From positions 74,784 through 138,783 of the forward strand of contig CAYLNG010000003.1 of the NCBI GenBank assembly GCA_964385155.1: 64,000 nt of DNA, given 5' to 3'. Shown here one piece after another: positions 4,223-24,855 of the stretch. The position numbers were made by a program, and so were the translations under genes. Positions within the stretch are counted from its first letter, which is position 1, and every line of letters begins with the position of its first letter. The notes under the pieces are model-generated. The model did not search any database and was not told the origin of the DNA. It worked only from the letters and a program-made list of their open reading frames with translations. The stretch is from an uncultured Verrucomicrobiota bacterium (GTDB lineage: Bacteria > Verrucomicrobiota > Kiritimatiellia > SS1-B-03-39 > UBA6053).

Positions 4223-4469
4223 ACCACAAAACAGGAAGGAATCGGGCGCATCCGCGGTAATCATTTTAGCTGCAAGCCCTTTCTTTCAAAGATCTTGCCG
4301 CATCCGCGTCCCTTTCGTCCCCTCGGTTGGAATTTCCCGAAGAAAAGATAACACCCGGACTTTTCTTTTCAGTTGCGGGCGGAGCCCACGTTAGGTTTAG
4401 GGTTGTCGCTCCCCCGGGGACGTGCTAGGACGGCCGACCCACCCGTTACCCACCCCCCCGACGTCCCGG

Positions 4470-7400: not shown

Positions 7401-8063
7401 AAACTGGAGGAGATGGGGCCCGTCAACATGGTCGCCATCGAGGAATACCAGGAACAGGAAGACCGCCACCAGTTCCTGCTCACCCAGCAGGAGGACCTCG
7501 TCAAGTCCAAGGAGCAGCTCCTCGACACCATCCGCGCCATCAACGCCACCACCACCGAGATGTTCAACGAGACCTTCCAGAAGGTCAACGCCAACTTCCA
7601 GGACATGTTCAAGCGGCTTTTCGGTGGCGGCGAGGCCCGCCTCGAACTTGTCGACGCCGGCAATATCCTGGAATCGGGCATCGACATCGTCGCACGCCCC
7701 CCCGGCAAAAAACCCCAGGTCATCAGCCTCCTCTCCGGCGGCGAGCGCACCATGACCGCGGTCGCCCTTCTCTTCGCCCTCTATCAGGTCAAGCCCAGCC
7801 CTTTCTGCGTCCTCGATGAACTTGACGCGGCCCTCGACGACGCCAACATCGGCCGCTTCGTCGGCGTCGTCCAGGATTTCCTCCGCGAGTCCCAGTTTAT
7901 CGTCATTACCCACAACCAGAAAACCATCGCCGCCGCCGACGTCCTCTACGGCGTCACCCAGGAACGCAAGGGCGTCTCCAAGGTTGTTTCCGTCAAGCTT
8001 ACGGACCACGATAAGGACCCCGAGGACGTCGCCCGCTCCAAACAAATCCCCGCCGAGGCCTAA
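4470..8063 (+). CDS. smc: Chromosome segregation protein SMC
   Basis: MYLKRVEFIGFKSFADKT...IVGPNGCGKSNI (Walker A), very long E/R/A/L-rich coiled coils, central hinge, LLSGGERTMTAVALLFAL signature and FCVLDELDAALD Walker B. Internal ATG at 4470 chosen over the ORF-track start at 4422. Confidence 0.95.
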   Translation: MYLKRVEFIGFKSFADKTVMNFLPGMTAIVGPNGCGKSNIADAIRWVLGEQSAKALRGGKMMDVIFNGADGVKPTNYAEVGLTLADCEGTLKTDYHEVTITRRLFRDGASEYYLNKQGCRLKDIHRLFMDTGMGRSSYSILEQGKIDQILSSHPEDRRIVFEEASGITKYKSDRAEALRKLESTEQNLVRLDDVIREVKRRMISLQRQAAKARRYQEIQIKLRAEDLWLTRHRLDEMREALGELEVHHDQLRRATEASRTDIETREDAIASARADLEAADKAIADQMEAAVSLRNDLNQARQSVKVNRERIEEMKTYASRDSRDAEEARARLEQHHQAITEGETSLSEARVLRDEAEAGWQQRQSELRDLESAGQDQRRLLQEKRARISAVENTLNRAQGLLRDFDIRERSRLVHQERLREEASELDKASSGRESRVAELESAFQELQIREQALKTRVEQGASQQNLHGEALRQKRREVGEADQAVAGLKARLDVLRAQEAEKQDFPSGARALLGKSEIAGLDRSRILGALAKLLRTDKKTQPALESALRGWIDAVVVRDASGLCDVLDALQGAKAGAARVLAADGISSPEPAQGPGVPLASRVKCADDIRPLVDRLFHGIFLVDDLRSAGLPAAGQVFVTPAGHLLRGEGALEVYATDQDLGNPLALQARITETETLLAEQAERAAQLRAELEAAQGEESRMQERLRAAREELQAVNREAAGREAELRTARRDLEQGSTRLSQLRNQLKDLDAKHQASDAERRSFSEQAEAARVELETLRATIESDAKAFDAAEAVRNEAVRTATEFRIRFAEHRQKVELLERQQHSLRERIRELETTIRERSEGVSTYEERVLKLDADLQAAQARIAPLEEKLAARNSDIEKARNERQVRQDSLQTLERELRALRATLEQRTTELGGLEVDIAQRRVRYENLIQRGTETYHITLPEIQQSPEPAWENGEPPSWEELDRSVETMKQKLEEMGPVNMVAIEEYQEQEDRHQFLLTQQEDLVKSKEQLLDTIRAINATTTEMFNETFQKVNANFQDMFKRLFGGGEARLELVDAGNILESGIDIVARPPGKKPQVISLLSGGERTMTAVALLFALYQVKPSPFCVLDELDAALDDANIGRFVGVVQDFLRESQFIVITHNQKTIAAADVLYGVTQERKGVSKVVSVKLTDHDKDPEDVARSKQIPAEA

Positions 8064-8069
8064 AATGGG

Positions 8070-8125
8070 GCGCGGACATTCCTGTCCGCGGAAACATCCC
8101 ACCCCCAAAAAAACGGCGGGCACCA
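8070..8125. repeat. Left copy of perfect 56-bp direct repeat bracketing the BREX island (attL-like)
   Basis: gcgcggacattcctgtccgcggaaacatcccacccccaaaaaaacggcgggcacca is identical base for base to 25098-25153. It starts 7 nt after the smc stop and contains a hairpin cgcggaca/tgtccgcg (8071-8090). Confidence 0.95.
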
Positions 8126-8148
8126 TGTGAAAAGTTTAGTCGAGTTTT

Positions 8149-8901
8149 CTATTGTTTCAATTTCAACAGCTCATCGTCCAGCCCATAGCGAACCACGTCG
8201 ATCCGGTCGCTGCGCTGGGAAACAAAATCTCCTGTCATCACAGGGAGCTGGAATGTGAAGAATGCCGGGTTGTTCAGGAGCAGCCCCAATGCGCCCTTGG
8301 CCTCCGGGGTGGCCAGGAGTGCGGACTCGAACATCAGGATGGCCAGGTTTGGCCCGGCAATGCTCACCGGAGCGGCTTTCTCATAGCAGCCTTTGGCCTC
8401 GGAATCTTTCAGGGCTCCCCAGGCGACAAAGGAGCGGATGACGAACCGGGCATAGCGGCTGACGGTTTGCCGGTCGCCGTACTGTTCCTTCAGGCGGTTG
8501 ATGATCTGGGTCTGGGTCACCTGATCCTGCAAGGCCAGCAAACGGCCGGTCTGGCGGGCCACATTGAACCAGAAGGGATAGACCGCCGAGATCATCCCCC
8601 AGTGGACCGCCAGGGCCATGGACGGGTTTTCCCTCAGAAACGCCAGCGAGGCATCCCGGAATGGAATCAACTCGGGGTCAGGAGAGACCCAGATCTTCAT
8701 CAGATTGTTGACGACAAAGGTCCGGGTCTGATCACTTCGTTCGCCTTCGGAGCCGTTGCCTTTTCGATCCGCGAGGAACTCATGCAGCTCCTGGCGGATG
8801 GTTTTGGCGTCGAGTCTCGCCAGCAGCAGATTGGCTGCTTTTTGCATCCACTCAAAACGAATCGCCTGCTTGATGCCAATGGCTTCGTGTCTTTTGCCCA
8901 T
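8149..8901 (-). CDS. brxA: BrxA-like protein (last gene of type 3 BREX operon)
   Basis: 250 aa, no catalytic motifs. Assignment is mainly positional (terminal gene after pglZ, TGATG overlap with the pglZ stop), plus a size and helical character compatible with DUF1819/BrxA. Confidence 0.55.
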   Translation of the reverse strand: MGKRHEAIGIKQAIRFEWMQKAANLLLARLDAKTIRQELHEFLADRKGNGSEGERSDQTRTFVVNNLMKIWVSPDPELIPFRDASLAFLRENPSMALAVHWGMISAVYPFWFNVARQTGRLLALQDQVTQTQIINRLKEQYGDRQTVSRYARFVIRSFVAWGALKDSEAKGCYEKAAPVSIAGPNLAILMFESALLATPEAKGALGLLLNNPAFFTFQLPVMTGDFVSQRSDRIDVVRYGLDDELLKLKQ

Positions 8902-10955
8902 CACCGTGTCCTCCTTTCAAACTTCACAAGGGGCACGATAACTTCTTCGATGGCTACACCGCCGTGACCTACGATGGCATCTCCCGGGTTCACGAATGCG
9001 TCGCGGCCACCGGCCACCAGGGGGAAATAATCTGCGGGCAACCCGACCGGCTGCCACTCGTGGGCAAACGGGAAGGCCCCAGCCACCTGAGCTCGGAGTT
9101 CCGGCGAGGGATAGACACGAACCCGCTCGCCGCGAGTTTCGGCAATAACACCTTCAGACGGGCGGCCTTTGCCTTCGCATTGGATGTTGCCGTGATCGGC
9201 CGTCAGCCAGACATCGTAGCCGTATTCCAGCAGTTGGCCGACCAGCGCAACCAGAAACCCACCCTCGCACCATTGCTTGATCTGGTTGTGCATCCCGGCC
9301 GAACCGAGTTGCATGCCGTGCATGATCTTGTCGACCTTGTCCACGACCAGCCCCACCACCTTGGTCTTCCCGGGGTGGATTGCGGAGTCGAGGACGCCCG
9401 CAGCATCGCCGTCGCCAAGACCTCGCTGGTAGGCGACATCCAGCCGGGACAGACCATGGCCTTCCCAGAACTGCTTCCAGAGTTTCTCTTCGCTGTTGGT
9501 CGAGTTAATGGATGACGGGAAATAGAGCGGCGGCTTACCGGAGAAGATCGACTGCCGCGATACCGAGGTCAGCGTCGGAATCCAGGCGAAGGTCGCGGAT
9601 TCGCGCATGACCAGATTGGCGTCCTGCTTTTGCAGAAGCTGGCGAATGGTTACCCACTGATCCAAGGCCAGGCCGTCAACCACAATCAACGCGGCACGGC
9701 TGCTACCGGAGTCCTCGATATCCCGAGCCAGGCGGCGCGGCACATGGTGGAGCATGGCAGGATTAGTCGGCGGCAAGTTGATCAGACTGGAGTAGTGGTC
9801 GGCCAGCCAAGCGGCAAAGGTCGCGTTCAGTGCATCGCCGATTTCCCTGAGCCGGGTCTGATACTCGGTGCTGTTGCCACAATGAACCAGCGAAGAAAGT
9901 TCGGCCCATTTCAACGCAAAGGCGGTCCAGTCCGAGTAACGCGCTTCCGCAGTGGGCAGTTCCTTCTCGACAAGGCCAAACAAGCGAGAGATCCGCAGCT
10001 CGTCATCGTCCACGCCGGAGGTGGCGATGCCGCTTCGGACCCAGGACCCGGCATCCACTTCAATGCCTTTGGCCTCGACAGGGGTGAGTTTCCCCTCCAG
10101 GAACAGGTTGTCGATGTAGACCTTGATGTCCTGATGGTCGAACGGCAGGCGATCAGGGCCGGGATAACGAAAGTGCGGGGTGCGAGGTCCGTAGTGCGTT
10201 TCGGGTTCGCGAACTGTGGGTTCCGCACAGCGCACTCCGCACTTCGCACTCAAGAAGAGCGGCCAGCGTTCCTGCAAAAAGGCGAAGAAGGCCTCATCGT
10301 CCGGAACGATCTCGGAAAGCGGCCAGGCTTTGAACCCATCATGCCCTTTGAGAACCTGGATAAGCCGCTCAGCCAGCATCAGCGGGATCTGTAGCTTCCC
10401 ATAGTGCAGGCGCAGCAATGCGCGAAGCAGCTCCACCTCGCCCCCAATTAGTTCCGCCGCAATGCCGAACACATGACGGAGAATGAAATCCTTGGTGGCG
10501 TTGTCGCCCATGCGATCCGGCGGCGACTTGCGCTGGGCCTCAAAAAGCGAATCCAGCAAGCTCCTGTCGAGCTTTTCAATGACCGGATAGCTCAGGTTGG
10601 GAAAGAGATCCCCCAAGTTGAATGAAAGCTTGCGGCCCGCCTGGAGTAGGTCGTAAGGCAAAGATTCCAGCTCCGCATCCTGCAAGCGGAGGACTACCAC
10701 CAGATCGGTGTGCTCACCCCGGTCCCAGATCGAACGGTACTTTGACTCATAGGCGTATCTGAATTCGACCGGATCACTGAACTCGATCAGGTCGAACCCG
10801 CGCCCGCGAAGCTCCAATGCCAGCTTCTCCTCGGTCAGCAGACAATCCGGGTCCGCGACCAGGGTCAGCTTGCTGACGTTGGGCACAAAGTCGTTCAGGA
10901 TGGCGTCTCGCCAGGAGGGAGAGTGCGAAGTGCGTTGTGCGGAGTGCGTTGTCAT
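8901..10955 (-). CDS. pglZ: BREX alkaline-phosphatase-superfamily protein PglZ
   Basis: 684 aa. C-terminal half has a PglZ-type pattern: AALIVVDGLALDQW, IPTLTSVSRQSIFSG, VDKIMHG, WLTADHGN. ATGA overlap with the upstream four-helix-bundle gene. Confidence 0.85.
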   Translation of the reverse strand: MTTHSAQRTSHSPSWRDAILNDFVPNVSKLTLVADPDCLLTEEKLALELRGRGFDLIEFSDPVEFRYAYESKYRSIWDRGEHTDLVVVLRLQDAELESLPYDLLQAGRKLSFNLGDLFPNLSYPVIEKLDRSLLDSLFEAQRKSPPDRMGDNATKDFILRHVFGIAAELIGGEVELLRALLRLHYGKLQIPLMLAERLIQVLKGHDGFKAWPLSEIVPDDEAFFAFLQERWPLFLSAKCGVRCAEPTVREPETHYGPRTPHFRYPGPDRLPFDHQDIKVYIDNLFLEGKLTPVEAKGIEVDAGSWVRSGIATSGVDDDELRISRLFGLVEKELPTAEARYSDWTAFALKWAELSSLVHCGNSTEYQTRLREIGDALNATFAAWLADHYSSLINLPPTNPAMLHHVPRRLARDIEDSGSSRAALIVVDGLALDQWVTIRQLLQKQDANLVMRESATFAWIPTLTSVSRQSIFSGKPPLYFPSSINSTNSEEKLWKQFWEGHGLSRLDVAYQRGLGDGDAAGVLDSAIHPGKTKVVGLVVDKVDKIMHGMQLGSAGMHNQIKQWCEGGFLVALVGQLLEYGYDVWLTADHGNIQCEGKGRPSEGVIAETRGERVRVYPSPELRAQVAGAFPFAHEWQPVGLPADYFPLVAGGRDAFVNPGDAIVGHGGVAIEEVIVPLVKFERRTR
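10223..10251 (-). repeat. CGCAC-rich motif, copy 1 (inside pglZ)
   Basis: ccgcacagcgcactccgcacttcgcactc. The 21-nt core cgcactccgcacttcgcactc (10231-10251) is identical to 11337-11357. The 29-nt version matches 11329-11357 with 2 mismatches. Confidence 0.9.
10921..10948 (+). repeat. CGCAC-rich motif, copy 2 (inverted orientation, first codons of pglZ)
   Basis: gagtgcgaagtgcgttgtgcggagtgcg contains the reverse complement of the core (gagtgcgaagtgcg + gcggagtgcg) with a 4-nt insertion. It lies 4 nt from the stop of the four-helix-bundle gene. Confidence 0.85.
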
Positions 10956-11326
10956 TCCCTTGTACTCCTATCCAATGACGAACGCAGGCCGCCTATTGCC
11001 CGGCTCAGGCCGATGCATTTCTCATAAATCTTTGAGCAATCGGAATCGGCAACATAGCCCAAGGACCTGGCCAATTGAATCTGGCTGCGGACTTCTGCGC
11101 ATGATCCTCGAGCAAAAGAAAGAAACTGCTTGAATTCTTGCCTGCTGTAGCGCTCGAAGCCTTCAGCAATGTTGGACATCACCGAAACGGATGCTCGCTG
11201 AATCTGATCCCGAAGCCCCCAATCTTTGGAAAACTCTCCATCCCTTGTCAGGTCATAAATTGCCACCGATAGGTCATGAGCCATTTGCCAGACCTGCAAG
11301 TCCTCGAATCGTTCGACCTTGCTCAT
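10952..11326 (-). CDS. Four-helix-bundle protein (23S rRNA intervening-sequence protein family)
   Basis: MSKVERFEDLQVWQMAHDLSVAIYDLT...DQIQRASVSVMSNIAEGFERYSRQEFKQFLSFARGSCAEVRSQIQLA is the characteristic signature of this family. ATGA overlaps at both ends (brxHII stop and pglZ start). Confidence 0.85.
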   Translation of the reverse strand: MSKVERFEDLQVWQMAHDLSVAIYDLTRDGEFSKDWGLRDQIQRASVSVMSNIAEGFERYSRQEFKQFLSFARGSCAEVRSQIQLARSLGYVADSDCSKIYEKCIGLSRAIGGLRSSLDRSTRE

Positions 11327-14232
11327 CACCGCACCTCGCACTCCGCACTTCGCACTCGCAACGCGAGCAGTGGACGGATTTCCGGTACGATCTGCCGCGC
11401 TGATTGCAGTTCATCCCTCCACTCCGCTTCCTCGGCATTACAGCGAGCCAGTCGGAATTGACGCACTTCGGGCAGCCCCACCCGTTCGATGGCCTTGCGC
11501 CGAGAGGCAAAGGCTGTTATGCCGCGTTCCTCTTCCCTGTTCACCGAAGAGAGGTGCGCGTGTTGCAATGTGTCGAACAGCTCCTGTCCGGCCTGTTCGG
11601 CAGCAATCTGCAACCGCTCATGGGCGATGATGGATTCGTCCTGGCCGAGGGTGGCCTGCACATGGGCTTCCGCTGTCTGCAGCGCATCCCAGATATGCCG
11701 GGCCGTGGGCAGAAACAGTTTGCCTTCCTCGCTCAGGAAAACACTGACATAGCCCCGCCGCACCATGGGAATGCGCAGGAGCTGTGTCTTCTGGTGCATC
11801 CCGGCCTGAAGGCGTATCTCAAAGAGCCCCCAGAGTCCGGAGATGCTGGCTGGCAATCCGCTCACGCTTACGCAAGGCAAAGGCTGGCCAGCCGCGATCT
11901 GCGGCAGGTTCAAGGCGAGCCCACGGACGCGGCTGTTTTCAAGATTGAGCAGGGTTGCGTCGGTTAGACGATCCGCTTCCCGAGCGCTGAATACGGCTTT
12001 GCGGTGTTCCTGGCCATCCGGCCAATTCAGATCCCACCAGGAGCGCTTGCGACTGGCCATACCGCCATGGGAGTTGAGGTAACCGACCGTCATCCGTTCC
12101 ACCCAGTGGGGCAGCGGATGCGAGCGCAGACGCTCAGCCGCCTGCACATCCGGCTCTTCGGAGATGCCATAGATGGCGGAGGCCTCGCGCACCTGCTGAA
12201 TTTCATCGCGAAGTCGAGCCACCGTGTGATCGACGGAGGTTTCGATACCGTCAGGATTGAGGATGGCGGAGGCGAACACATCCTCGAACAACTCACCGGC
12301 CTGGGCCGAGTCGAGCACGTCGCCGGTCTTGTCGATGCCGAACTCGTCGAAGATCACCGAGAGCTTCTGCTCCAGAACTTCGCGGACCCGGAACTCGACT
12401 GAATCCTCAAATACGAAATTGATCGCCTGTACGGTTTTGGGCTGCCCGATACGATCCACGCGGCCGATTCGCTGTTCCAGCCGCATCGGGTTCCAGGGGA
12501 TGTCGTAGTTGATGATGACATGGGCGAACTGCAGGTTCAGGCCCTCACCACCCGCGTCGGTGGAAACCAGCACACGGTGCGATTTGCGGAAGGCATCCTG
12601 GGCCTGCTTGCGTTCCTCCATATCCATGGAGCCGTTCAGGGTGACGACCGAGATGCCCCGGGCTTCCAGAAACTCCTTCAGCATCTGCTGGGTGGGTACG
12701 AACTCAGTGAAGATCAACACCTTCAGGTCCGGCTCGTTTTCCTCGGCCTGCAGCTCGTAGATCCACTCGATCAACGCCTCGGCCTTGGCGTCCGGTCCAG
12801 CTTGTTCGCAGCGAACCGCCGCATCGAGCAGAGCTTGAACCTCGGATTTTTCATTCTGGTGGGCGGCCCGCATCTCCGCCAAAGCCTCCAGCTGCTCCTG
12901 CCCATCCATGTCTTCCCATTCTTCAGAGGAGAACCACAGATTCACAGCGATAGACGCGGATTCAGAATCCCCCCCCCCCATCTGTGTTAATCTGTGTCCA
13001 TCTGTGGTTTCTTCCAAAACCGCGAGACGCCGTTCCAGCGTTGTGCGGATCGCCCGAGTGCTGGAGACCACCAGGCGCTGCATCAGGATCATCAGAAAAC
13101 CGATATGGCGCTTCTTCTCGCGCAGGGCCTGGTTGTAGCCCTCGCGCACATAGTCGGTCACCGCCTCGTAGAGAAGCTGCTGCAGGTGATGACGGTGGGT
13201 CCAGGCCACCGGGGCCATCTGCGTGCGCCGGGGTTTGAAGAGCGGCTTGCCGTCGGTATCGATGGCCTTGCGCTTTTCGGTGCGGATGACATACGGGGCC
13301 ACCCGCTCACGGGAGACGCTGTCCATATCCGGAAAGGCGTCATCATCCAGCAGGTTCATCAGGCGATGAAAGGCATCGGTCTTCCCCTGGTGGGGAGTCG
13401 CCGAAAGGAGCAGCACATAGGGCGCGGCTTCCGCCAGCCCCTTGCCGAGCTTGTAGCGGGCGACCTGATCGGTACTGCCACCCAGGCGGTGCGCTTCGTC
13501 CACCACTACCAGGTCCCAACCGGCAGTAATCAGATCCTCGAACCGGCTGCGGTTGTAGTCGGCAACGCGCTCGGCGGTCCAGCCGCGCCGCTTGTCCATG
13601 GGCTTGACCGAATCCAGGGAGACGATGACCTGATCGAACATCGACCAGGCTGAGTTCCGGTGGTCCGCCCCTGGTGCCAGGCGCTGCAAGGTGCCGATGT
13701 CGTCGCCCAGCACAAGCTGGAACTGCTCGTTGAAATGGGTCTGCATTTCCGCAACCCACTGAGTGGCGATGCCTTTGGGAGAGACGACCAGGATTCGCCG
13801 AACCAGCCCGCGCAGTTTGAGCTCACGCATGACCAGACCGGCCTCGATCGTCTTACCGAGACCCACCTCGTCGGCCAGCAGGTAGCGCACGCGGTCGCCG
13901 GAGATGGCCCGGGACAAGGCGTGGATCTGGTGCGGTAGCGGAATGACGTTGGACTCCATGGGAGCCAGCAGCACATGACCGTCGGTAGCGCTGGTGGAGC
14001 CTTCAAGCACCTCGGCCACCTTGGCTGCAGCGGCCACATAGGCAATGCGTCCGGCCTCGATCTCCGGCTGCAGGTCGGCACTCAGCGGCCGCAAAGCGGA
14101 GCGGGGCACGCGCACCACCGCGTCCTGGTTCGGCAACCAGACACGGCAAACCGTTTGCCCCCACAAGGTCTGTTCTTCGATGACCTTGCAGGCGCTGTTA
14201 TGAACGGTGCTGTATTGCCAAAGCGACTCCAT
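11326..14232 (-). CDS. brxHII: SNF2-family helicase, BrxHII-like
   Basis: 968 aa. Motifs: LLADEVGLGKT (motif I), VVVDEAHRLGG (DEAH box), LLLSATPHQG, STDAGGEGLNLQ and QRIGRVDRIGQ (motif VI). Its position between pglXI and pglZ matches type 3 BREX. Confidence 0.85.
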   Translation of the reverse strand: MESLWQYSTVHNSACKVIEEQTLWGQTVCRVWLPNQDAVVRVPRSALRPLSADLQPEIEAGRIAYVAAAAKVAEVLEGSTSATDGHVLLAPMESNVIPLPHQIHALSRAISGDRVRYLLADEVGLGKTIEAGLVMRELKLRGLVRRILVVSPKGIATQWVAEMQTHFNEQFQLVLGDDIGTLQRLAPGADHRNSAWSMFDQVIVSLDSVKPMDKRRGWTAERVADYNRSRFEDLITAGWDLVVVDEAHRLGGSTDQVARYKLGKGLAEAAPYVLLLSATPHQGKTDAFHRLMNLLDDDAFPDMDSVSRERVAPYVIRTEKRKAIDTDGKPLFKPRRTQMAPVAWTHRHHLQQLLYEAVTDYVREGYNQALREKKRHIGFLMILMQRLVVSSTRAIRTTLERRLAVLEETTDGHRLTQMGGGDSESASIAVNLWFSSEEWEDMDGQEQLEALAEMRAAHQNEKSEVQALLDAAVRCEQAGPDAKAEALIEWIYELQAEENEPDLKVLIFTEFVPTQQMLKEFLEARGISVVTLNGSMDMEERKQAQDAFRKSHRVLVSTDAGGEGLNLQFAHVIINYDIPWNPMRLEQRIGRVDRIGQPKTVQAINFVFEDSVEFRVREVLEQKLSVIFDEFGIDKTGDVLDSAQAGELFEDVFASAILNPDGIETSVDHTVARLRDEIQQVREASAIYGISEEPDVQAAERLRSHPLPHWVERMTVGYLNSHGGMASRKRSWWDLNWPDGQEHRKAVFSAREADRLTDATLLNLENSRVRGLALNLPQIAAGQPLPCVSVSGLPASISGLWGLFEIRLQAGMHQKTQLLRIPMVRRGYVSVFLSEEGKLFLPTARHIWDALQTAEAHVQATLGQDESIIAHERLQIAAEQAGQELFDTLQHAHLSSVNREEERGITAFASRRKAIERVGLPEVRQFRLARCNAEEAEWRDELQSARQIVPEIRPLLALRVRSAECEVR
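11329..11357 (-). repeat. CGCAC-rich motif, copy 3 (last codons of brxHII, just upstream of the four-helix-bundle start)
   Basis: ccgcacctcgcactccgcacttcgcactc encodes the helicase C-terminal SAECEVR. It is inverted relative to copy 2, so the pair brackets the four-helix-bundle ORF. Confidence 0.9.
12969..13009. repeat. Homopolymer C11 (G11 on the coding strand) followed by three 10-bp tandem repeats, inside brxHII
   Basis: C run at 12969-12979, then atctgtgtta / atctgtgtcc / atctgtggtt (12980-13009). A 10-bp inverted partner aaccacagat lies at 12932-12941. The region encodes ...TTDGHRLTQMGGGDSE... Confidence 0.9.
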
Positions 14233-14239
14233 CCGCTAA

Positions 14240-16864
14240 TTACCCTCTACCTTGATCTGTTGCCTGTTGAATCTGAATTGCAGGTGCAATTCGAGTTCGG
14301 ATTTCGTTGTAAACAGCGATGTCGACGCCCTCGGCTACCTCCAGCGACACGGCCAAACCATACGCGACAGGGCTCTGGAATATTCCAGCGTCCTCACGGC
14401 AGTTCACTTTGATTTCGATAACTTCCCCGTCGATGAACGGCACCGCCCTCTGGCCTTCGAAAACTTCGTGCTGGACTGTTCCGCGCCGCACTGCTCGCCA
14501 GCCGTCAGTCCCGCTGCAGCTTTCTTTTCTATCTTTGGCTGGCACAACTCCGCCTACCTCGAACCACAGGCTTGATGTTCTGTACTTTTGCGTTCCTGCA
14601 GAAATTGGTGAAAGCCATGCCATGGTTACGGTCAGGCGTCGCCATTCAGGCCGGGAGCCCAGAGAAGGCGGCAGCGGCAATCTGAAAACATGGGCTTCAC
14701 CATCCAAAAGTTGCCCAAAGCCCAACAAGGAGGCTCTCTGCTCCGTACAATCCAGAACGCGATCTACCTGTGGAACGCCATACCCCATCCATCTGCTAAC
14801 AAGTCCACTGATCTGTCGATTATTCTCTGGCGTGCGCAGAAGTTCGCCGATTTGAGTGCCAATATCTCCCCACGCGCATCCATGAACCAGCATGGCCTTC
14901 ACCAGGGGCGCTTCACATGCTCGCGCATCAACATCTGTAGCCTGCTCAGCGAATATTTGCTGAAGCGAGTCGTAACAAATACCAGCAGCACGACTCATCA
15001 ATGCAGCGGCATTGCTTGTTCCACAGGAATAGGCAATACCTTCGAGATTCCCAGATTGCCGGGCAGGAATAGCGGTTTTGTTTCCTGGCGGAGTATTACG
15101 AATTGATGGTTCGACCGGCTTTATGACGTAGTTATCCCGCCGTGAAGACCGGAGATCTTCCTGGTACAGGACCCTGCCTCCCGGGAAGACGATATCCGGC
15201 TTAATCGCCCTTCGATAACCACTACCGAACGCTGAAACCGGGCTCGGCAAGAACTGCAGAAACGGGTTGAATCTCTTATTGACCACCCCAAAGTGAGATG
15301 AATCGTATTGAACTGAACCAACCGTCAGCCCATTGATACTCTCGGCTGGAGAAAGAAGCTTGCGATTCCTGGCATCAGAAAATAGTGCTTTAACAACGGC
15401 TACTTCTTGTTCTTGTGGATCTGAGGATTCAAATTCGGTCCGCGAAATCCCGAGTTGTATAGCGTCTGACTGATTCCCGGCGCTTACAACAAAAAGCACA
15501 CCATAGGTGAGGCTGAGCCAATCCAGTAGCCTTGCTACAGGACTCATGGACTGCAGGAACTTTCTGTAGGGATCACCAATCGATAAATTGATCACCCTTA
15601 CAGAGGGGGCTACCGGACCTTCTGTACCATCACCTTCAAATAGCCTTTTCACAGATCGGTGAATCAGGTCCACTAGCAGGACGTCATCCGGAATGTGTTC
15701 ACGGCGAGGTGTCCGAAAATCATTTGGAATCGGCTGCATAATCGGGCGCACATACACTGGTCGCCCTAATGGCCGCAGCCCATCATTAAGGTCGCCGTGG
15801 ACGATCAGAGACGCCATTGATGTGCCATGCACGCGCTCATTGGCGTTATAGCTGTTTTCTACATCGTCTGGGTCGTCGACGATTAGTCTTCCATTCAGAA
15901 GTCGATGATTCGCCAATGGGAGCCCATCCAAGACCGCAATTACCGGCTCTCCATCCGGCAGCGAATGTTCTTCAAGGTCGGAATAGACTGCCTCGTCTTC
16001 GAGAAGGCCATCGCCAGCAAGCATCTGCCCGACAGGTCGAAAGAACATGACGCTGTCACATTTCACCAGCTCCGTATTCGGATTATCGACAACGGCCTGG
16101 ATGGCATTGGCTGGCAACTCGGCCAAAATGCCATGGTAGGCAATACCATCATGCAGTGACTCAGCCAAAACCTGCCCGCCAAGCTGCTGAATCAGGTTTG
16201 TAACGATTGCTGAGCCTTGCCGTCTCTTCTCTTCACTGTTTCGATACCATAGCTCGACTTCAAACCGGATAAGCCTGCCGCCGTCATGCTCCAGATCTTC
16301 TCGCCAGGCATCAATCACCCCGGTTTCCAGAAGCCTATCTTTGACGTCCCACCGGCGAATGTCCTTCAAGCACAGAAAGACATCACGAAACTTTGTGAGC
16401 CCGCCAGCGAATTTCTGTTTTGGGTCGTCCTGGTCCGTATAGCGACGCCACATGGAGAGCATCTCATCGAGAGCTCTCTGATTGGTCATAATCATATACA
16501 GGCGGCCACTCAGCGCTTTCTCCGGATGTTTTTCATCGAAGAATTCCTGATCAGGACCTATTTCATCAATCTCAAATTCGCCCATCCACTCAAAGCCATC
16601 GATACGCTTCACAGCATTGGCGAAATCTTCCACGCTCCCGATGGTTTCCATTACAAGTACCTGTTCAGGGTCTATGCCTGTCACAGCTTGCTGGAACTCG
16701 ATGTTTCGGGCGCGAACAGCTTCTTGTAGCTGAGTAAATTTTGGAGCCAGCCTTTCCCCTTGCCGAAAATGTGTTGGCAGATGCGGACGACCACCTCCGC
16801 CGCCAAGATTCGACTTGGAAGTAACTTCAGGCGTCGGGAAAAGGAGTAGTGGGCGTTCAGGCAT
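14240..16864 (-). CDS. S8 (subtilisin-like) serine peptidase with large N-terminal domain of unknown function; IetS-like
   Basis: 874 aa. Asp-His-Ser order typical of subtilases: PVIAVLDGLP (D), VHGTSMASLIVHGD (H), SAGNQSD, YSCGTSNAAALMSRAAG (S). About 300 aa at the N-terminus have no recognisable motif. 8-nt overlap with the upstream AAA+ gene. Confidence 0.85.
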   Translation of the reverse strand: MPERPLLLFPTPEVTSKSNLGGGGGRPHLPTHFRQGERLAPKFTQLQEAVRARNIEFQQAVTGIDPEQVLVMETIGSVEDFANAVKRIDGFEWMGEFEIDEIGPDQEFFDEKHPEKALSGRLYMIMTNQRALDEMLSMWRRYTDQDDPKQKFAGGLTKFRDVFLCLKDIRRWDVKDRLLETGVIDAWREDLEHDGGRLIRFEVELWYRNSEEKRRQGSAIVTNLIQQLGGQVLAESLHDGIAYHGILAELPANAIQAVVDNPNTELVKCDSVMFFRPVGQMLAGDGLLEDEAVYSDLEEHSLPDGEPVIAVLDGLPLANHRLLNGRLIVDDPDDVENSYNANERVHGTSMASLIVHGDLNDGLRPLGRPVYVRPIMQPIPNDFRTPRREHIPDDVLLVDLIHRSVKRLFEGDGTEGPVAPSVRVINLSIGDPYRKFLQSMSPVARLLDWLSLTYGVLFVVSAGNQSDAIQLGISRTEFESSDPQEQEVAVVKALFSDARNRKLLSPAESINGLTVGSVQYDSSHFGVVNKRFNPFLQFLPSPVSAFGSGYRRAIKPDIVFPGGRVLYQEDLRSSRRDNYVIKPVEPSIRNTPPGNKTAIPARQSGNLEGIAYSCGTSNAAALMSRAAGICYDSLQQIFAEQATDVDARACEAPLVKAMLVHGCAWGDIGTQIGELLRTPENNRQISGLVSRWMGYGVPQVDRVLDCTEQRASLLGFGQLLDGEAHVFRLPLPPSLGSRPEWRRLTVTMAWLSPISAGTQKYRTSSLWFEVGGVVPAKDRKESCSGTDGWRAVRRGTVQHEVFEGQRAVPFIDGEVIEIKVNCREDAGIFQSPVAYGLAVSLEVAEGVDIAVYNEIRTRIAPAIQIQQATDQGRG

Positions 16865-17864
16865 CCTTCACCTCCGGTTCGTCCTGTTGAGCCACGGTGA
16901 CTGATCGGGCGGACCAGCTCTGGAGGGTTTTGGACACGATATCCTTCATGTCTGCATTCGGTTGTTCGAGCACATACTGGCGGAACACAGTTGTGCCGAA
17001 CTCTTCGACTTCCGCGAAATTTGATCCCAGAAGGCGTTTTGCCAAAGTGCCAGGCGCGTATCCCAAAGAGATTTTGATCCGGCGTTCGAACTTTTCGAAC
17101 CACTCAGTCAGACGAGCCCGGGTCGGGCCAGGCAGCGTCATGCGCACCTGGAAGCGTCGCCATACCGCACGATCCAGCAGTTCGGCATGATTGGTTGCCC
17201 CGATGACCATGACATGGCTAGGCAGGTTGTCGATCTGCATCAACAGCGAACTCACCACGCGCTTGATCTCACCGGTCTCGTGCAGATCGCCGCGTTCCTT
17301 GCCGAGGGTTTCAAACTCGTCAAAAAAGAGGACACATTTCCGAGTAGACGCGTACTCGAACAGCTTTTTCAGTCGGACAGCGGTCTCGCCCAAGTAGGTG
17401 CCGACGACGCTCTCGTAGCGAACCACAAGCAGTGGGACCACCAGTGCTTCTGCAATGGCTTCGGCCAAGGATGTCTTGCCATTACCCGGCGGTCCGATGA
17501 GGAGCACGCGGTTGCGGGGCTCCAGGTTGTAAGACCTAAGCAGGTCGGTCCGATGTTGTTCCTGAATCAGACTCTGACAAATCTGCAGCACCTCATCCGG
17601 GAGGATGAGATCGGACAGCTTTCGCTGGGGCATAACCTCATGGAACAGGTTGCCCATGCGTTGATCCAGCATAGGACCACCGCCATTGGTAACTGGGCGT
17701 TCTACCGGCGCGGCGGTGAGTAACTCCTCGAGTTTCTCGGCCAGCACCTTGTGCTGCTTGGTTCGCTCCTCGGCGATGATCGCCTCGACGACCTTTCTAA
17801 AGCTGGCCTTGTCGCCCCGTATGCCGGATTGGACAAGGCGAATAAGTAAATCCGCTCTTGCCAT
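16857..17864 (-). CDS. AAA+ ATPase; IetA-like partner of the S8 peptidase
   Basis: 335 aa from ATG 17864. Motifs: LLIGPPGNGKTSLAEAIA (Walker A), CVLFFDEFETL (Walker B), VMVIGATNH (sensor 1), AVWRRF (Arg finger region). TAATG overlap with the pglXI stop. Confidence 0.85.
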   Translation of the reverse strand: MARADLLIRLVQSGIRGDKASFRKVVEAIIAEERTKQHKVLAEKLEELLTAAPVERPVTNGGGPMLDQRMGNLFHEVMPQRKLSDLILPDEVLQICQSLIQEQHRTDLLRSYNLEPRNRVLLIGPPGNGKTSLAEAIAEALVVPLLVVRYESVVGTYLGETAVRLKKLFEYASTRKCVLFFDEFETLGKERGDLHETGEIKRVVSSLLMQIDNLPSHVMVIGATNHAELLDRAVWRRFQVRMTLPGPTRARLTEWFEKFERRIKISLGYAPGTLAKRLLGSNFAEVEEFGTTVFRQYVLEQPNADMKDIVSKTLQSWSARSVTVAQQDEPEVKDA

Positions 17865-20563
17865 TATTCGCCTCCCATTCTTGTTACTGCCTGGTCGTAC
17901 CACATGAGCAGTTTGGGATCTTCTTCCAGGACGTTGTTGGGAATCTTTTCAGCCACTGCTACGATTACATTGTAATCTCTCTCTTGCCAGGCCTTCTTGA
18001 AACCGGCTCGAACAGCTTCTAGCCGGAAAACTTTGAGATTCTTCTTGGCACCTTTATATTCCTCGAACTCCTTCAGCAACGCCCTTTCGCGTAATTTTTC
18101 GAGATCACCAGCCTTATTTGGATCGGGCAAGTACCAGCGATCACGAGCTTTCGCAATGAGCCCTGGATCATCTTTGGGGCGGTTGCGTAACTCCGGCCAG
18201 TTAGTCGACAGATAACTGTGAATTTGGCTCGGAACTTCACCACGCCCTTCGAATCGCAAGAAGTTCTGCTCTAGCAACGTAGACAGTTCAAGAGCTTTCT
18301 CATTCTTGCTCCACCCACCAATTTCCCTCAAAAACTGTGGGTGGAGATCCCGGAAGGTCTGCGGTTTATCACGGAGAAGGCTTCTCAACCATTCAATTGC
18401 CGAAGATTCATCAGAAACAAACAGAGTACCTTGAATCAACCGTTCAACGGTTAAGCGTTTTTTGTCATACTCTGCAGCTTGTTCGGGAAGAAAAAACATC
18501 CCATCACGCTCAGCAAACCTCTGTCTAATACCGAGCTGGAATTCTTGATTAGAAATAGGTACGGGATATCCATTCCTAACATAGTAGGCCACCATTTGAT
18601 CGAACAATATTCTGGAGTCCCTTTCGGTGAGATACGCAACATCACTCCCTAACTTCTTGAAAGTGGGGAGATGAGAAAGATAGTTACGAACAAACTCCCA
18701 AACACCTCTCTCTTCTGAGGCAGATGCGTTGAATTTCTCAAGGAATTGAGTTGAAGGCTTGTAGGCAGAGATAATCAAATCCTGGACAACAGCCCCCGGC
18801 CTTATATCGGCAAGTATTGTTGTAGATCCTTTATCAAGCTTGCATACCTGAGCAACCACGAAACCTGCTTCGGATATCGCATTTTGTATTAGGTTCCAGA
18901 CCGAAGCTTGCGTGTTGTGAAACTCTACAGTCAGCCATTTTCCTGGCCTTAATACTCTGTAACACTCTTTAAACGCTCGAAGCATTAACCGACCGTAATC
19001 TTCAAACTCCTTATGCTTTGTTTCATCGATTACTGCTTCTGGTGAATTGTTAGATCTTACCTTTAACCATCCCTCGAGAATCAAGTTCATTTCGCTGTAT
19101 ATTATGTTTGCACCAAAAGGAGGATCGGTATAGATGTAATCAATGCTCTGGTCCACAATCTGATCAAGCTTCGTGGCTGACTGCGTTGTTACAAGATGGC
19201 CTTCATGGTTTCGTGGCTTTTCACTTTCGGCATCAATGAATTTTTTTATCTTTCTTCTGAGAGAGTCGTAGATATTTTTTTCCATTCGAACGATTGGCAT
19301 ATACAGGTTTCCTGACATGCCTCCACCGCCACCGAAATATCCTTGACGCTCAGATATGACAGTGAAAATTGACGTTAAGCACGATCTAATAGCATTACGT
19401 ATGGACGCGTCGTTGATTTCTGCCATACGTTGCCACAGGTCGGCAAAGACCAATCGGTTTCTTTCTGATAGAAACTTGCTAACGTCTGTAATTGCTTTGT
19501 CGCCTAACTGAGCGAGCTTTGCTGAGTATCCAGCTGGGTCTATTTCGTCAGATGGAATCCACAAAGGTGTATCTTGTAGGGCAGATATAACTTTGCGCAC
19601 AACATCTCGATCGAAATCGTTTGGCTCTCGGTTAATCCGATTTCTTCCAGACGCAGCATTTACCCAAGCAAGAGATTTTTTCTTTCCATCAGTTGTAAGT
19701 ACCCGTTCAACTTTCCTTACGTTTAGTTCAGCACCACATGATGGACACTTGAATTGCTTTTTAGTCTGGACCTTGTTGCCATGGTGAATAACGCCGTGCG
19801 GGAAAAACGGAAATTCATGAACACACTCAGGGCAATTAAACACATCCGTCCATACGTAATAGTTAACACTTGTACGTCTTCCGGCATCTTCTGTTTCATA
19901 CACCCAGCTAAATTTTTTCTCGGACTGCCTTAATAAATTCTCAATTTCTTTTTTGAATAAGTGTTTGTCGAAACTAGACGTATTAACGCTAGAGATAAAT
20001 GTCGCTATTGGTGAAAGATCGTTGACAATAACATTTCTTCCGCACTCTCTGGCGGCTACGCCCGTCATTCCGGTCCCACAGAAAATGTCCAGTACCAAAT
20101 CACCTGGGGAGGTGTAGTAGGTAATCAAATCCTTGATAATCTCTGGAGGCACTTTGGTATGATAAGGATGAAATGAATAAACAGGATGCCGACCTGTCGC
20201 GGCAAGATCGCCCGAATATGGTTCCGAAACTACTTCCGTTGAGGAAGGATCTCCATATATCGACAAAAATTCCCCAATCCACGGATTAGGACAAGCGGTG
20301 TAATACGGCGGATCGCTCAGGTTCAGGATGTCCTCGTCGCTGCCGATAGGAAAGCCTTCGATCTTGCGGAACTCCGGGTCCTGCAGCTTCTTGCGCAGCT
20401 CCTCGGTGAAATGGGCGCGGCGGGCCTCATCGTTCTCGAAGGTCATACCGAGACAAGTCACCGGGCCGGAGGGCTTCTGCGGCTCTTCAAGCAGCGAGTC
20501 GAACAAACTGGTTTCTTTCATCTTCATATTCCTTTTTGGCGTCTTGTTTCTCAGCTTGGTCAC
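17864..20563 (-). CDS. pglXI: BREX type 3 DNA methyltransferase PglXI-like (N6/N4 amino-methyltransferase)
   Basis: 899 aa. VLDIFCGTGMTGVAA (SAM-binding FxGxG) and IYTDPPFGANI (DPPF/DPPY catalytic motif), with a Cys-rich CPEC...CPSC insertion between them. The true start may be ATG 20527 or 20521 (MKMKETSLF). Confidence 0.8.
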   Translation of the reverse strand: MTKLRNKTPKRNMKMKETSLFDSLLEEPQKPSGPVTCLGMTFENDEARRAHFTEELRKKLQDPEFRKIEGFPIGSDEDILNLSDPPYYTACPNPWIGEFLSIYGDPSSTEVVSEPYSGDLAATGRHPVYSFHPYHTKVPPEIIKDLITYYTSPGDLVLDIFCGTGMTGVAARECGRNVIVNDLSPIATFISSVNTSSFDKHLFKKEIENLLRQSEKKFSWVYETEDAGRRTSVNYYVWTDVFNCPECVHEFPFFPHGVIHHGNKVQTKKQFKCPSCGAELNVRKVERVLTTDGKKKSLAWVNAASGRNRINREPNDFDRDVVRKVISALQDTPLWIPSDEIDPAGYSAKLAQLGDKAITDVSKFLSERNRLVFADLWQRMAEINDASIRNAIRSCLTSIFTVISERQGYFGGGGGMSGNLYMPIVRMEKNIYDSLRRKIKKFIDAESEKPRNHEGHLVTTQSATKLDQIVDQSIDYIYTDPPFGANIIYSEMNLILEGWLKVRSNNSPEAVIDETKHKEFEDYGRLMLRAFKECYRVLRPGKWLTVEFHNTQASVWNLIQNAISEAGFVVAQVCKLDKGSTTILADIRPGAVVQDLIISAYKPSTQFLEKFNASASEERGVWEFVRNYLSHLPTFKKLGSDVAYLTERDSRILFDQMVAYYVRNGYPVPISNQEFQLGIRQRFAERDGMFFLPEQAAEYDKKRLTVERLIQGTLFVSDESSAIEWLRSLLRDKPQTFRDLHPQFLREIGGWSKNEKALELSTLLEQNFLRFEGRGEVPSQIHSYLSTNWPELRNRPKDDPGLIAKARDRWYLPDPNKAGDLEKLRERALLKEFEEYKGAKKNLKVFRLEAVRAGFKKAWQERDYNVIVAVAEKIPNNVLEEDPKLLMWYDQAVTRMGGE

Positions 20564-20611
20564 TTTATGGGTGACTAAGCTCGGCGGAGTTGGTCACTCG
20601 CTTAGTCACTC

Positions 20612-24855
<4,244 letters not shown>

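What the first reader, a model, noticed from the sequence alone, without database searches (positions are those of the whole stretch)
10921..11357. Four-helix-bundle (rRNA-IVS-type) gene bracketed by inverted CGCAC-rich repeats, with a third copy inside pglZ
The 21-nt string cgcactccgcacttcgcactc occurs identically at 10231-10251 and 11337-11357 (29 nt with 2 mismatches when extended). Its reverse complement occurs, with a 4-nt insertion, at 10921-10948. Copies 2 and 3 are inverted relative to each other and lie within 4 and 11 nt of the stop and start of the four-helix-bundle ORF (10952-11326). On the operon mRNA they could therefore pair into a stem with the whole ORF in the loop. That is the geometry of 23S rRNA intervening sequences, the context after which this protein family was named; IVS stems are RNase III substrates. 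The repeats also supply coding sequence: the last residues of BrxHII (SAECEVR), the first residues of PglZ (MTTHSAQRTSHS), and an internal PglZ segment (SAKCGVRCAE). This suggests a small cassette inserted in frame, or an RNA-processing site separating the upstream and downstream halves of the BREX transcript.
Basis: partly seen in the sequence, partly recalled or inferred. Interest (0 to 1): 0.6.

Follow-up and report, generated by a model that had tools for sequence, protein, structure and literature searches.

The report
Hairpin-armed four-helix-bundle cassette inside BREX
A small gene enclosed by mirror-image runs of a 7-base repeat, built like the "intervening sequences" of ribosomal RNA, has been inserted in frame between two genes of a phage-defence (BREX type 3) operon. 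Near-identical operons without it, and with a different cassette at the same spot, show that gene plus repeats behave as one insertable unit.

Summary
The repeats are three 4-unit heptamer arrays at window 11330-11357, 10921-10948 and 10224-10251. The inverted copy differs by one whole 7-nt unit, not by 4 nt.

The two arrays around the PF05635/TIGR02436 gene form a 25-bp stem (-50.8 kcal/mol) that encloses the ORF.

Comparison with 121 BREX-3 PglZ proteins (92-97% identical) and more than 30 loci shows that the array-encoded peptides occur only where the four-helix-bundle (4HB) gene is present. About 444 nt replace 29 nt of the canonical brxHII/pglZ overlap.

The third copy belongs to a separate gene-less hairpin that replaces a PglZ linker in frame, and it is present or absent independently of the cassette.

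The 4HB protein is under strong purifying selection (dN/dS 0.03-0.09). The repeat cores change far less often than the spacer positions.

Deeply diverged BREX-3 loci carry cassettes at the same junction. Two close backbones carry unrelated cassettes with breakpoints exactly at the outer arm ends.

RNase III cleavage is inferred by analogy only; the tool for finding sequencing runs was closed.

This scan has flagged the same cassette design on other DNA many times. The closest published case is the Coxiella 23S IVS.

The parts
11330..11357 (-). Left (5') arm of the cassette. On the mRNA it reads GAGTGCG AAGTGCG GAGTGCG AGGTGCG. It encodes the last residues of BrxHII (..RSAECEVR*) and carries the SD-like GAGG upstream of the 4HB ATG.
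   Evidence: Absent from the canonical junction. Conserved across the filled loci listed (seven distinct arm haplotypes compared).
10952..11326 (-). Four-helix-bundle protein gene, 124 aa (PF05635 / TIGR02436). Its ATG overlaps the brxHII stop (TGATG) and its stop overlaps the pglZ start (ATGA).
   Evidence: 2e-36; TIGR02436, 7.6e-34; PDB 2GSC, 2.7e-16. dN/dS 0.03-0.09.
10921..10948 (-). Right (3') arm. On the mRNA it reads CGCACTC CGCACAA CGCACTT CGCACTC. It encodes PglZ residues 3-12 of an 11-residue N-terminal extension.
   Evidence: It pairs with the left arm: 24 WC + 1 GU of 28 in ungapped register, 25 bp in the fold, -50.8 kcal/mol.
10914..11357 (-). The whole cassette-specific segment, about 444 nt. 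It replaces 29 nt (ATCATCAAGGGAGGCGCTCAATGAGTAGT) of the canonical brxHII/pglZ overlap.
   Evidence: DNA alignment of filled and empty loci.
10224..10251 (-). Left arm of a gene-less hairpin inside pglZ (GAGTGCG AAGTGCG GAGTGCG CTGTGCG). It shares 21 identical nt with the cassette's left arm.
10171..10198 (-). Degenerate right arm of the internal hairpin (CGCACTA CGGACCT CGCACCC CGCACTT).
   Evidence: intL:intR duplex -36.1 kcal/mol.
10164..10253 (-). The internal element as a whole. About 90 nt replace about 63 nt of the canonical PglZ linker in frame (+9 aa: AKCGVRCAEPTVREPETHYGPRTPHFR in place of RLGSAHQVREDSPEYGLK).
   Evidence: It is present or absent independently of the cassette. It is triplicated in frame in L210.
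8149..24343 (-). Host operon, BREX type 3: BrxC, PglXI, embedded IetA/IetS pair, BrxHII, [4HB], PglZ-3, BrxA.

Best explanation
This is an IVS-type cassette. A PF05635 four-helix-bundle gene is enclosed by two inverted arrays of four heptamers (GAGTGCG / CGCACTC). It is inserted at the 4-nt overlap between brxHII and pglZ of a BREX type 3 island.

Shown:
- The gene and its arms are one unit. They are present, absent, or replaced by a different gene-plus-arms unit at exactly this junction in otherwise similar islands.
- The arms are read in frame. They give BrxHII a new tail and PglZ an 11-residue leader. Overlapping stop/start codons keep translational coupling through the insert.
- The protein is kept by strong purifying selection. 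The GTGCG cores vary little between haplotypes (4.0% pairwise, against 17.9% in the spacers).
- Among near-identical islands the cassette is now shuffled by homologous recombination of its flanks.

Inferred:
- On untranslated mRNA the arms close a 25-bp stem that RNase III can cut, as it cuts the Coxiella and Leptospira 23S IVS stem.
- In translated mRNA, ribosomes finishing brxHII keep the stem open.
- The cassette is a facultative passenger of the operon, not a core BREX part.
- The gene-less hairpin in the PglZ linker derives from the same repeat system, seeded from or converted by the cassette arms in cis.

How cassettes first enter a junction is unknown.
For: Filled versus empty sites:
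- PglZ comes in four forms: 664, 675, 673 and 684 aa.
- The N-terminal extension occurs only where the 4HB gene is present.
- All filled junctions have the same architecture.
- The flanks are identical to the canonical sequence right up to the cassette.

Stem:
- It is present in the MFE and the centroid fold.
- The arm duplex is -50.8 kcal/mol.
- The right arm has 23.4 expected bp with the cassette's left arm and 1.4 with the internal left arm.
- 22-25 WC pairs of 28 are kept in 7 haplotypes.

Selection:
- 4HB dN/dS is 0.03-0.09 at dS of about 1.
- Pairwise difference is 4.0% in the arm cores and 17.9% in the spacers.

The cassette behaves as a unit:
- All 5 PF05635 genes of this genome sit between inverted tandem arrays, each with its own unit.
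- The repeat unit clusters on the 4HB tree: 27 changes against a shuffled mean of 52.9. All 13 GTGCG-armed genes fall in one clade with 97% support.
- L022 (Lentisphaerota) has an 82% identical 4HB with the same unit in a non-BREX context.

Recurrent occupation of the junction:
- Cassettes sit at the same junction in BREX-3 loci whose PglZ is only 48-68% identical. Others sit just upstream of brxHII.
- L118 and L139 have flanks 80-93% identical in nt but cassettes only 48-65% identical. Their 4HB proteins are 50% identical and the units differ. The breakpoints lie at the outer ends of the arms.

RNase III is encoded in the genome. RNase III excision of a stem of the same design is published (PMC4990558).
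Against:
- A cut in the stem would damage both neighbouring messages, so selection may act against cleavage here.
- Changes in the arms among BREX-3 haplotypes are mostly not compensatory. Conservation of the GTGCG core fits sequence recognition as well as it fits pairing.
- No transposase, no target-site duplication and no direct trace of movement were found.
- The one breakpoint that could be resolved in the window lies 60-100 nt outside the arm, which points to ordinary homologous recombination.
- Long residence at one junction together with strong purifying selection is also what a useful BREX accessory gene would show.
- Related CGCACTC arrays without any 4HB gene are native to the host's family, and this is unexplained.
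Confidence: 0.6

Rival explanations
1. The cassette is a true accessory or regulatory module of BREX-3. The 4HB protein works with BrxHII or PglZ. The stem sets the ratio of upstream to downstream gene expression, for example by occluding the pglZ start or by controlled cleavage.
For: - 4HB cassettes occupy the brxHII/pglZ junction in BREX-3 lineages whose PglZ is only 48-68% identical.
- 4HB dN/dS is 0.03-0.09 over dS of about 1.
- Translational coupling is preserved on both sides.
- 4HB and PglZ distances correlate (r = 0.73, Mantel 0 of 2000).
Against: - 106 of the 121 closest PglZ proteins come from the form without the extension, so the system works without the cassette.
- The same design occurs around all other 4HB genes of this genome, in unrelated contexts, and in L022.
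- Close backbones carry unrelated cassettes.
- The 4HB protein has no PADLOC hit.
Confidence: 0.2
2. The arms act at the DNA level. They are ends recognised, as hairpins or as repeated binding sites, by a recombinase or by the 4HB protein itself. That activity moves or copies the cassette and seeds gene-less hairpins. The RNA stem is a by-product.
For: - The 5-nt core is conserved while the spacers drift without compensation.
- The repeat unit tracks the protein clade.
- A gene-less hairpin with the cassette's own unit lies about 700 nt downstream in two deep lineages, the window group and L118. It is absent from the L139/L194 loci that carry a GTGAT cassette.
- L206/207/209 share the derived unit GAGTGCT in both the cassette arm and the internal arm.
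- One cassette has replaced another with breakpoints at the arm ends.
Against: - No recombinase lies in or next to the cassette.
- The 7 Y1 transposase genes of the genome are not near any array.
- There is no target-site duplication.
- The internal hairpin also exists in islands without the cassette (L018, L019).
- Homologous recombination of flanks explains the shuffling that was resolved.
Confidence: 0.15
3. The arrays are only the host's common intergenic heptamer repeats and flank the gene by chance. They have no tie to the 4HB gene.
For: About 18 further (CNCAYTC)n arrays lie at other sites of this genome without a 4HB gene. Several sit in a Mu-like prophage piece. The unit is frequent in the host's family.
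Against: - The BREX-3 island is foreign to the host's relatives: 0 of 40 related genomes hold this PglZ.
- The arms are present in every filled BREX-3 locus from other samples and absent from every empty one.
- The 82-85% identical 4HB genes elsewhere have the same unit.
- Four of the five 4HB genes here rank within the top 0.4% of 1500 control ORFs for flank complementarity.
Confidence: 0.03

Closest known systems
ORF-bearing intervening sequences (IVS) of 23S rRNA (Coxiella burnetii helix 45, Leptospira, Brucella, Xanthomonas type); Warrier et al. 2016, PMC4990558
   Same: - The protein family is the same (S23p / PF05635; nearest solved structure 2GSC of X. campestris).
- The element is about 430-440 nt.
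- Terminal inverted repeats form a stem of about 25-28 bp with the ORF in the loop.
- Tandem heptamers lie in the arm just before the start codon.
   Different: - This element sits in an mRNA operon, not in rRNA.
- Both arms are translated as parts of the neighbouring proteins.
- The ORF is intact and under strong purifying selection with a usable SD, whereas the Coxiella ORF is decaying and probably not expressed.
- RNase III cleavage is shown for Coxiella and not tested here.
Dispersed heptamer arrays of Xanthomonas and Nostoc (GGGNATC type); Rehm et al. 2015, PMC4692102
   Same: - The period is 7 and four units are preferred.
- The arrays lie between co-oriented ORFs.
- The G-rich strand follows a stop codon and the C-rich strand precedes the next start. 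The two cassette arms and this genome's gene-less arrays have this same orientation.
   Different: - The published arrays were described without any link to a gene family and were read as G-quadruplex formers.
- GAGTGCG has no G-runs.
- Here the arrays come as a complementary pair around a gene.
Rickettsia palindromic elements (RPE) inserted in frame in protein genes (Ogata et al. 2000; from my own knowledge)
   Same: The internal pglZ element is a palindromic repeat unit carried in frame inside an otherwise conserved protein, in a tolerant linker.
   Different: - It is built from heptamer arrays that share the unit of a neighbouring gene cassette.
- It replaces about 63 nt rather than simply adding sequence.
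- It is not known to be a high-copy family.
bAvd, the accessory protein of diversity-generating retroelements (PF05635 relatives; PMC10053308 lists the family)
   Same: Same fold family of small four-helix-bundle proteins that form pentamers.
   Different: No reverse transcriptase, template repeat or variable repeat is nearby. All neighbours are BREX or Iet proteins.

Membership tests
PF05635 / TIGR02436 four-helix-bundle protein (23S rRNA IVS protein, S23p) | The profile HMM score exceeds the curated cut-off over the full domain. | tested here: met
   PF05635 scores 124.8 bits against a cut-off of 33.8. TIGR02436 scores 116.2 bits against 24.
PF05635 / TIGR02436 four-helix-bundle protein (23S rRNA IVS protein, S23p) | Four-helix-bundle fold and homopentameric ring. 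| not tested
   Only sequence similarity to 2GSC was checked (E = 2.7e-16). No model was built.
23S rRNA intervening sequence (IVS) | Located in helix 25 or helix 45 of a 23S rRNA gene. | tested here: not met
   The element lies between brxHII and pglZ. There is no rRNA match or other Rfam match in 9800-11800.
23S rRNA intervening sequence (IVS) | Terminal inverted repeats form a long stem with the whole insert in the loop. | tested here: met
   The stem is 25 bp (14+5+6) in both the MFE and the centroid fold. The arm duplex is -50.8 kcal/mol.
23S rRNA intervening sequence (IVS) | Excised from the transcript by RNase III. | not testable with these tools
   The host has an rnc gene.
Heptamer-armed 4HB cassette (class noted repeatedly by this scan, not in print) | A PF05635 gene lies between inverted arrays of period 7, within a few nt of its start and stop. 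| tested here: met
   Four of the five 4HB genes of the genome are in the top 0.4% of 1500 control ORFs for flank complementarity.
Heptamer-armed 4HB cassette (class noted repeatedly by this scan, not in print) | Gene plus arms are present or absent as a block at an otherwise conserved site. | tested here: met
   Searches show filled versus empty sites. One search shows one cassette replaced by another at the same boundaries.
Heptamer-armed 4HB cassette (class noted repeatedly by this scan, not in print) | The repeat unit goes with the protein subfamily. | tested here: met
   The unit label needs 27 changes on the 4HB tree against a shuffled mean of 52.9 (minimum 46). The GTGCG unit is confined to one clade with 97% support. 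Common descent alone can give this result.
Transposon / MITE | Target-site duplication and a transposase, either in the element or in trans with matching ends. | tested here: not met
   There is no duplication at the junction; 29 nt are replaced. No transposase lies in the element. The Y1 transposase genes of the genome have no heptamer arrays nearby.
BREX type 3 | Gene set BrxC/PglY, PglXI, BrxHII, PglZ (type 3 model) and BrxA in one operon. | tested here: met
   PADLOC hits: BrxC 2174 bits, PglXI 1127, BrxHI|BrxHII model (PDLC02500) 1621, PglZ 1110, BrxA 400. NF033449 BREX_PglZ_3 scores 919 bits. BrxF was not checked.
Diversity-generating retroelement (Avd context) | An adjacent reverse transcriptase and a template/variable repeat pair. 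| tested here: not met
   All neighbours within the operon are BREX or Iet proteins. The repeats are heptamer arrays, not a TR/VR pair.

The most novel reading that the evidence does not exclude
The four-helix-bundle pentamer recognises its own heptamer unit, roughly one unit per subunit. Together with host functions it maintains or copies the arrays. On this reading the gene-plus-arms cassettes, the 23S rRNA IVS, and the many gene-less heptamer hairpins between and inside genes form one family of protein-specified mobile repeats. The family would include the in-frame hairpin in PglZ and the arrays before prophage start codons in this genome. BREX-3 junctions would be a recurrent landing site for it.
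Probability: 0.2. Interest if true: 0.85.

Novelty: new variant of a known kind. Interest (0 to 1): 0.62.

Why it matters
The purpose and origin of rRNA intervening sequences and of their S23p gene have been open for more than 30 years. So has the excess of 7-nt tandem repeats in bacterial genomes.

This locus offers a clean natural experiment. One highly conserved defence island is spread over many phyla and occurs in several states:
- with an empty junction;
- with a filled junction;
- with a junction filled by a different cassette;
- with or without a gene-less hairpin inside pglZ.

It shows three things:
- The gene and its arms are inherited and exchanged as one unit.
- The protein is functional (dN/dS about 0.05).
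- Within the arms the GTGCG cores vary much less than the spacer positions (4.0% against 17.9% pairwise).

It also gives directly testable constructs in laboratory hosts: the filled junction versus the canonical 29-nt junction of a working BREX-3 system. On the practical side, annotators should expect PglZ and BrxHII length variants caused by these inserts.

Tried and rejected
- Donor search in the host's own family: no 4HB gene more than 51% identical was found in 18 related genomes. The cassette therefore did not come from the host lineage, even though CGCACTC arrays are common there.
- Compensatory changes within the BREX-3 clade: there are few changes and most are not compensatory. No covariation claim is made from this clade alone.
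- Precise transposition into the window's island: the resolved breakpoint lies 60-100 nt outside the right arm, so homologous recombination suffices for recent spread.
- Single versus repeated origin on the PglZ tree: the tree is too poorly resolved for more than 'at least 2-3 changes forced' (5 of 115 branches are well supported).
- REP/RAYT-like system: there are 7 Y1 transposase genes, none next to arrays.
- G-quadruplex reading of the arrays: rejected, because the unit has no G-runs.
- DGR/Avd reading: rejected, because no RT and no TR/VR pair are present.
- Host taxonomy: cluster look-ups gave no names. It remains undetermined.
Full report
OBSERVATION

The 21-mer CGCACTCCGCACTTCGCACTC is present exactly at 10231-10251 and 11337-11357, and inverted at 10921-10948. 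Shuffles expect none. Read in register, all three copies are arrays of four heptamers, (CGCACNN)x4, at 10224-10251, 10921-10948 and 11330-11357. The inverted copy differs from the 21-mer by one whole extra unit of 7 nt, not by 4 nt.

All genes here are on the minus strand:
- an SNF2 helicase, 14232..11326;
- a 124-aa PF05635 protein, 11326..10952;
- PglZ, 10955..8901.

The stop and start codons overlap on both sides of the small gene (TGATG and ATGA). Each arm lies 3 nt from the ORF.

THE HOST OPERON

PADLOC and NCBIfam name a BREX type 3 locus. It holds BrxC, PglXI, an embedded IetA/IetS pair, BrxHII, the four-helix-bundle (4HB) gene (TIGR02436, no PADLOC model), PglZ of the type 3 model, and BrxA. 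The nearest solved structure to the small protein is 2GSC, the Xanthomonas S23p.

None of 40 genomes related to the host holds this PglZ. In contrast, PglZ proteins 92-97% identical occur in records named Desulfococcus, Pseudomonas aeruginosa, Myxococcota, Clostridiales, Nitrospira and others. The island is therefore horizontally spread and extremely conserved.

FILLED AND EMPTY SITES

The close PglZ proteins come in four lengths:
- 664 aa is canonical, with start MSSWRD and linker LSRLGSAHQVREDSPEYGLKYPGPD.
- 675 aa has only the leader MTxHSAxRTSHSPS.
- 673 aa has only a linker that is 9 aa longer (AKCGxRxAExxVREPETHYxPRTxHFR).
- 684 aa has both, as in the window.

Of the 121 best hits, 106 are canonical, 6 have both features, 5 have the leader only and 3 have the linker only. 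The remaining hit, P0060, has a cut N-terminus and a canonical linker. These figures correct the regex tally by inspection of P0008 and P0019.

Contigs show that the leader goes with the 4HB gene:
- 664-aa and 673-aa loci have brxHII overlapping pglZ directly (L015/L016, L018/L019).
- 675-aa and 684-aa loci have the 4HB gene in between (L017, L020/L021).
- So do 16 more loci found through the 4HB protein cluster.

At the DNA level, about 444 nt (10914-11357) replace 29 nt of the canonical junction (ATCATCAAGGGAGGCGCTCAATGAGTAGT). The flanks match the canonical sequence right up to the arms. There is no target duplication.

THE STEM

Folding 10900-11380 as RNA gives the arm-arm helix (14+5+6 bp) in both the MFE and the centroid structure (z = -2.73). 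The arm duplex alone is -50.8 kcal/mol. In a 1.3-kb transcript, the right arm is expected to form 23.4 bp with the cassette's left arm and only 1.4 bp with the look-alike arm inside pglZ.

The genome encodes RNase III. No Rfam family matches the region.

One point follows directly from the sequence. Both strands of the stem are coding sequence. A cut would therefore leave brxHII without its stop codon and pglZ without its start codon. Ribosomes finishing brxHII must melt the left arm. If the stem is processed at all, it competes with translation. It is not a harmless separator of two halves of the transcript.

SELECTION

Between cassette copies, the 4HB gene has dN/dS of 0.03-0.09 at dS of 0.4-1.9. 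For the window against the same loci, pglZ has dS 0.11-0.36 and brxHII 0.34-0.53. The cassette is thus much more diverged than its flanks, yet its protein is tightly conserved.

The arms behave differently:
- Mean pairwise difference is 4.0% in the GTGCG cores and 17.9% in the two spacer positions.
- 22-25 Watson-Crick pairs of 28 are retained in all seven haplotypes.

The few changes are mostly not compensatory. This clade therefore shows that the cores change much less than the spacers, not covariation.

THE CASSETTE IS A UNIT

All five PF05635 genes of this genome lie between inverted tandem arrays, each with its own unit:
- GAGTGCG;
- AGTTGGT;
- GCGGGGA;
- GCAGGG-type;
- an 8-nt unit on contig C40.

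Four of the five fall in the top 0.4% of 1500 control ORFs for complementarity of their flanks.

Among 112 relatives of the window's protein (48-85% identity), the repeat unit clusters on the protein tree. It needs 27 changes against a shuffled mean of 52.9. All 13 GTGCG-armed genes lie in one well-supported clade. An 82% identical gene in a Lentisphaerota MAG (L022) has the same unit in a non-BREX setting. The arms therefore belong to the gene, not to the host.

DEEP AND REPEATED ASSOCIATION WITH BREX-3

Cassettes of this subfamily sit at the same brxHII/pglZ junction in BREX-3 loci whose PglZ is only 48-68% identical to the window's. These are L023, L024, L033, L118/9, L120, L129, L139, L169 and L194. 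In L122, L125 and L133/5 one sits just upstream of brxHII.

The units differ among these loci (GTGCG, GTGCA, GTGAT/GGACT), but the arms stay complementary. In L139 this includes an odd unit mirrored on both sides.

4HB and PglZ distances correlate overall (r = 0.73, Mantel 0 of 2000), with a sharp exception:
- L118 and L139 have flanks 80-93% identical in nt.
- Their 4HB proteins are only 50% identical, and the units differ.
- The breakpoints lie exactly at the outer ends of the arms (..GCTCGGRGTG | .. | GCAGAATCGTGGCG..).

That is cassette replacement at one site. It is the strongest sign here that gene plus arms enter junctions as a block.

Recent spread among the near-identical islands is explained by ordinary recombination:
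- The islands are mosaics.
- The window's cassette is closest to that of L196, while its pglZ is 99% identical to canonical L016.
- The switch lies 60-100 nt beyond the right arm.

The PglZ tree is too flat to count events precisely. At least 2-3 changes of state are forced.

THE THIRD COPY

10224-10251 is the left arm of a gene-less hairpin. Its degenerate right arm is at 10171-10198. The element replaces about 63 nt of a PglZ linker with about 90 nt, in frame. On its own it folds only modestly (-45 kcal/mol, z = -1.47; intL:intR duplex -36.1).

It occurs with or without the cassette. In one metagenome contig (L210) it is triplicated in tandem, with an 87-nt period, still in frame.

Three observations tie it to the cassette in cis:
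- In the window, the two left arms share 21 identical nt.
- L206/207/209 share the derived unit GAGTGCT in both arms.
- The deep lineage L118, which has a GTGCG cassette, has a GTGCG hairpin in the same linker. Its close relatives L139/L194, which have a GTGAT cassette, have none.

Gene conversion or copying from the cassette arm is the simplest reading. It is an inference.

THE GENOME-WIDE REPEAT

The exact 21-mer is confined to this locus. Related (CNCAYTC)n arrays occur at about 18 other places in the genome. They are often 0-11 nt before a start codon, or form antisense+sense hairpin pairs between co-oriented genes. Several lie in a piece of a Mu-like prophage.

The same unit is frequent in genomes of the host's family and was not found in 22 other families of the class. 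Those genomes have no close relative of this 4HB protein. Why a foreign cassette and the host's own arrays share a unit is unexplained. The orientation rule matches that described for Xanthomonas and Nostoc arrays: the G-rich strand follows a stop, and the C-rich strand precedes the next start.

COMPARISON WITH WHAT IS KNOWN

The closest published element is the ORF-bearing 23S rRNA IVS. In Coxiella this is a 428-nt insert with an S23p ORF, a 28-bp stem and tandem heptamers before the start codon, and it is cut out by RNase III (PMC4990558).

The present element shares the protein family, the size, the stem and the heptamers. It fails the defining location, because it is not in rRNA. It differs further in being translated through by its neighbours and in having a well-kept ORF. 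It is not a transposon or MITE by the usual criteria, and it is not a DGR.

Full-text searches found no description of this design in operons. Earlier notes of this scan describe the same design on other DNA many times, including cargo-less in-frame copies in BREX genes. I used them as leads to papers and tested the unit-protein link and the filled/empty criterion myself.

VERDICT

The cassette reading is supported. The RNase III reading is plausible but untested and has a cost at this site. The third copy is a separate, related element.

Noticed in passing
window 14240-17903 (minus strand): An IetA/IetS (AAA ATPase + S8 peptidase) defence pair is embedded between pglXI and brxHII of the BREX-3 operon. 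In sister islands the same slot holds other cargo: an AAA_15/AAA_21-DUF3696 ATPase, or an RNA ligase. The slot after brxA holds HamA plus a helicase, or SIR2. This suggests that BREX-3 has fixed cargo slots.
   Followed up: partly
window 4446-8126 (minus strand): A 1226-aa ORF directly downstream of brxA has no hit in Pfam, NCBIfam or PADLOC. It occupies the position where sister islands carry other defence genes.
   Followed up: no
G000 contig C30:2500-12100 (locus L217): A piece of a Mu-like prophage (Gp36 hit) has CGCACTC-type heptamer arrays 0-11 nt upstream of at least six start codons. It also has antisense+sense array hairpins in the gaps between genes. No 4HB gene is involved.
   Followed up: partly
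L210:2758-3018 (JGI contig Ga0131077_10084352): The gene-less hairpin element inside pglZ is present as three tandem copies (87-nt period, 96% matches). All are in frame and add 58 residues to the PglZ linker.
   Followed up: yes
window 12800-13100 and 11900-12050 (brxHII): Short blocks of brxHII are only 60-70% identical to sister islands, although the rest of the gene is 90-97% identical. These are sharply bounded hypervariable or exchanged segments inside the helicase.
   Followed up: no
G000 contig C40:5520-6090: The fifth 4HB gene of the genome has arms built from an 8-nt unit (TGATGGGG / CCCAACAC), with one mismatch per unit. The downstream arm lies inside an extended open frame of the gene.
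   Followed up: partly
L122, L125, L133, L135 (metagenome contigs): In other BREX-3 loci a 4HB cassette with GAGGACT-type arms sits immediately upstream of brxHII instead of between brxHII and pglZ.
   Followed up: partly
G000 contigs C52, C62, C72, C36, C90: Seven IS200/Y1-transposase matches lie near contig ends. None has heptamer arrays nearby.
   Followed up: yes
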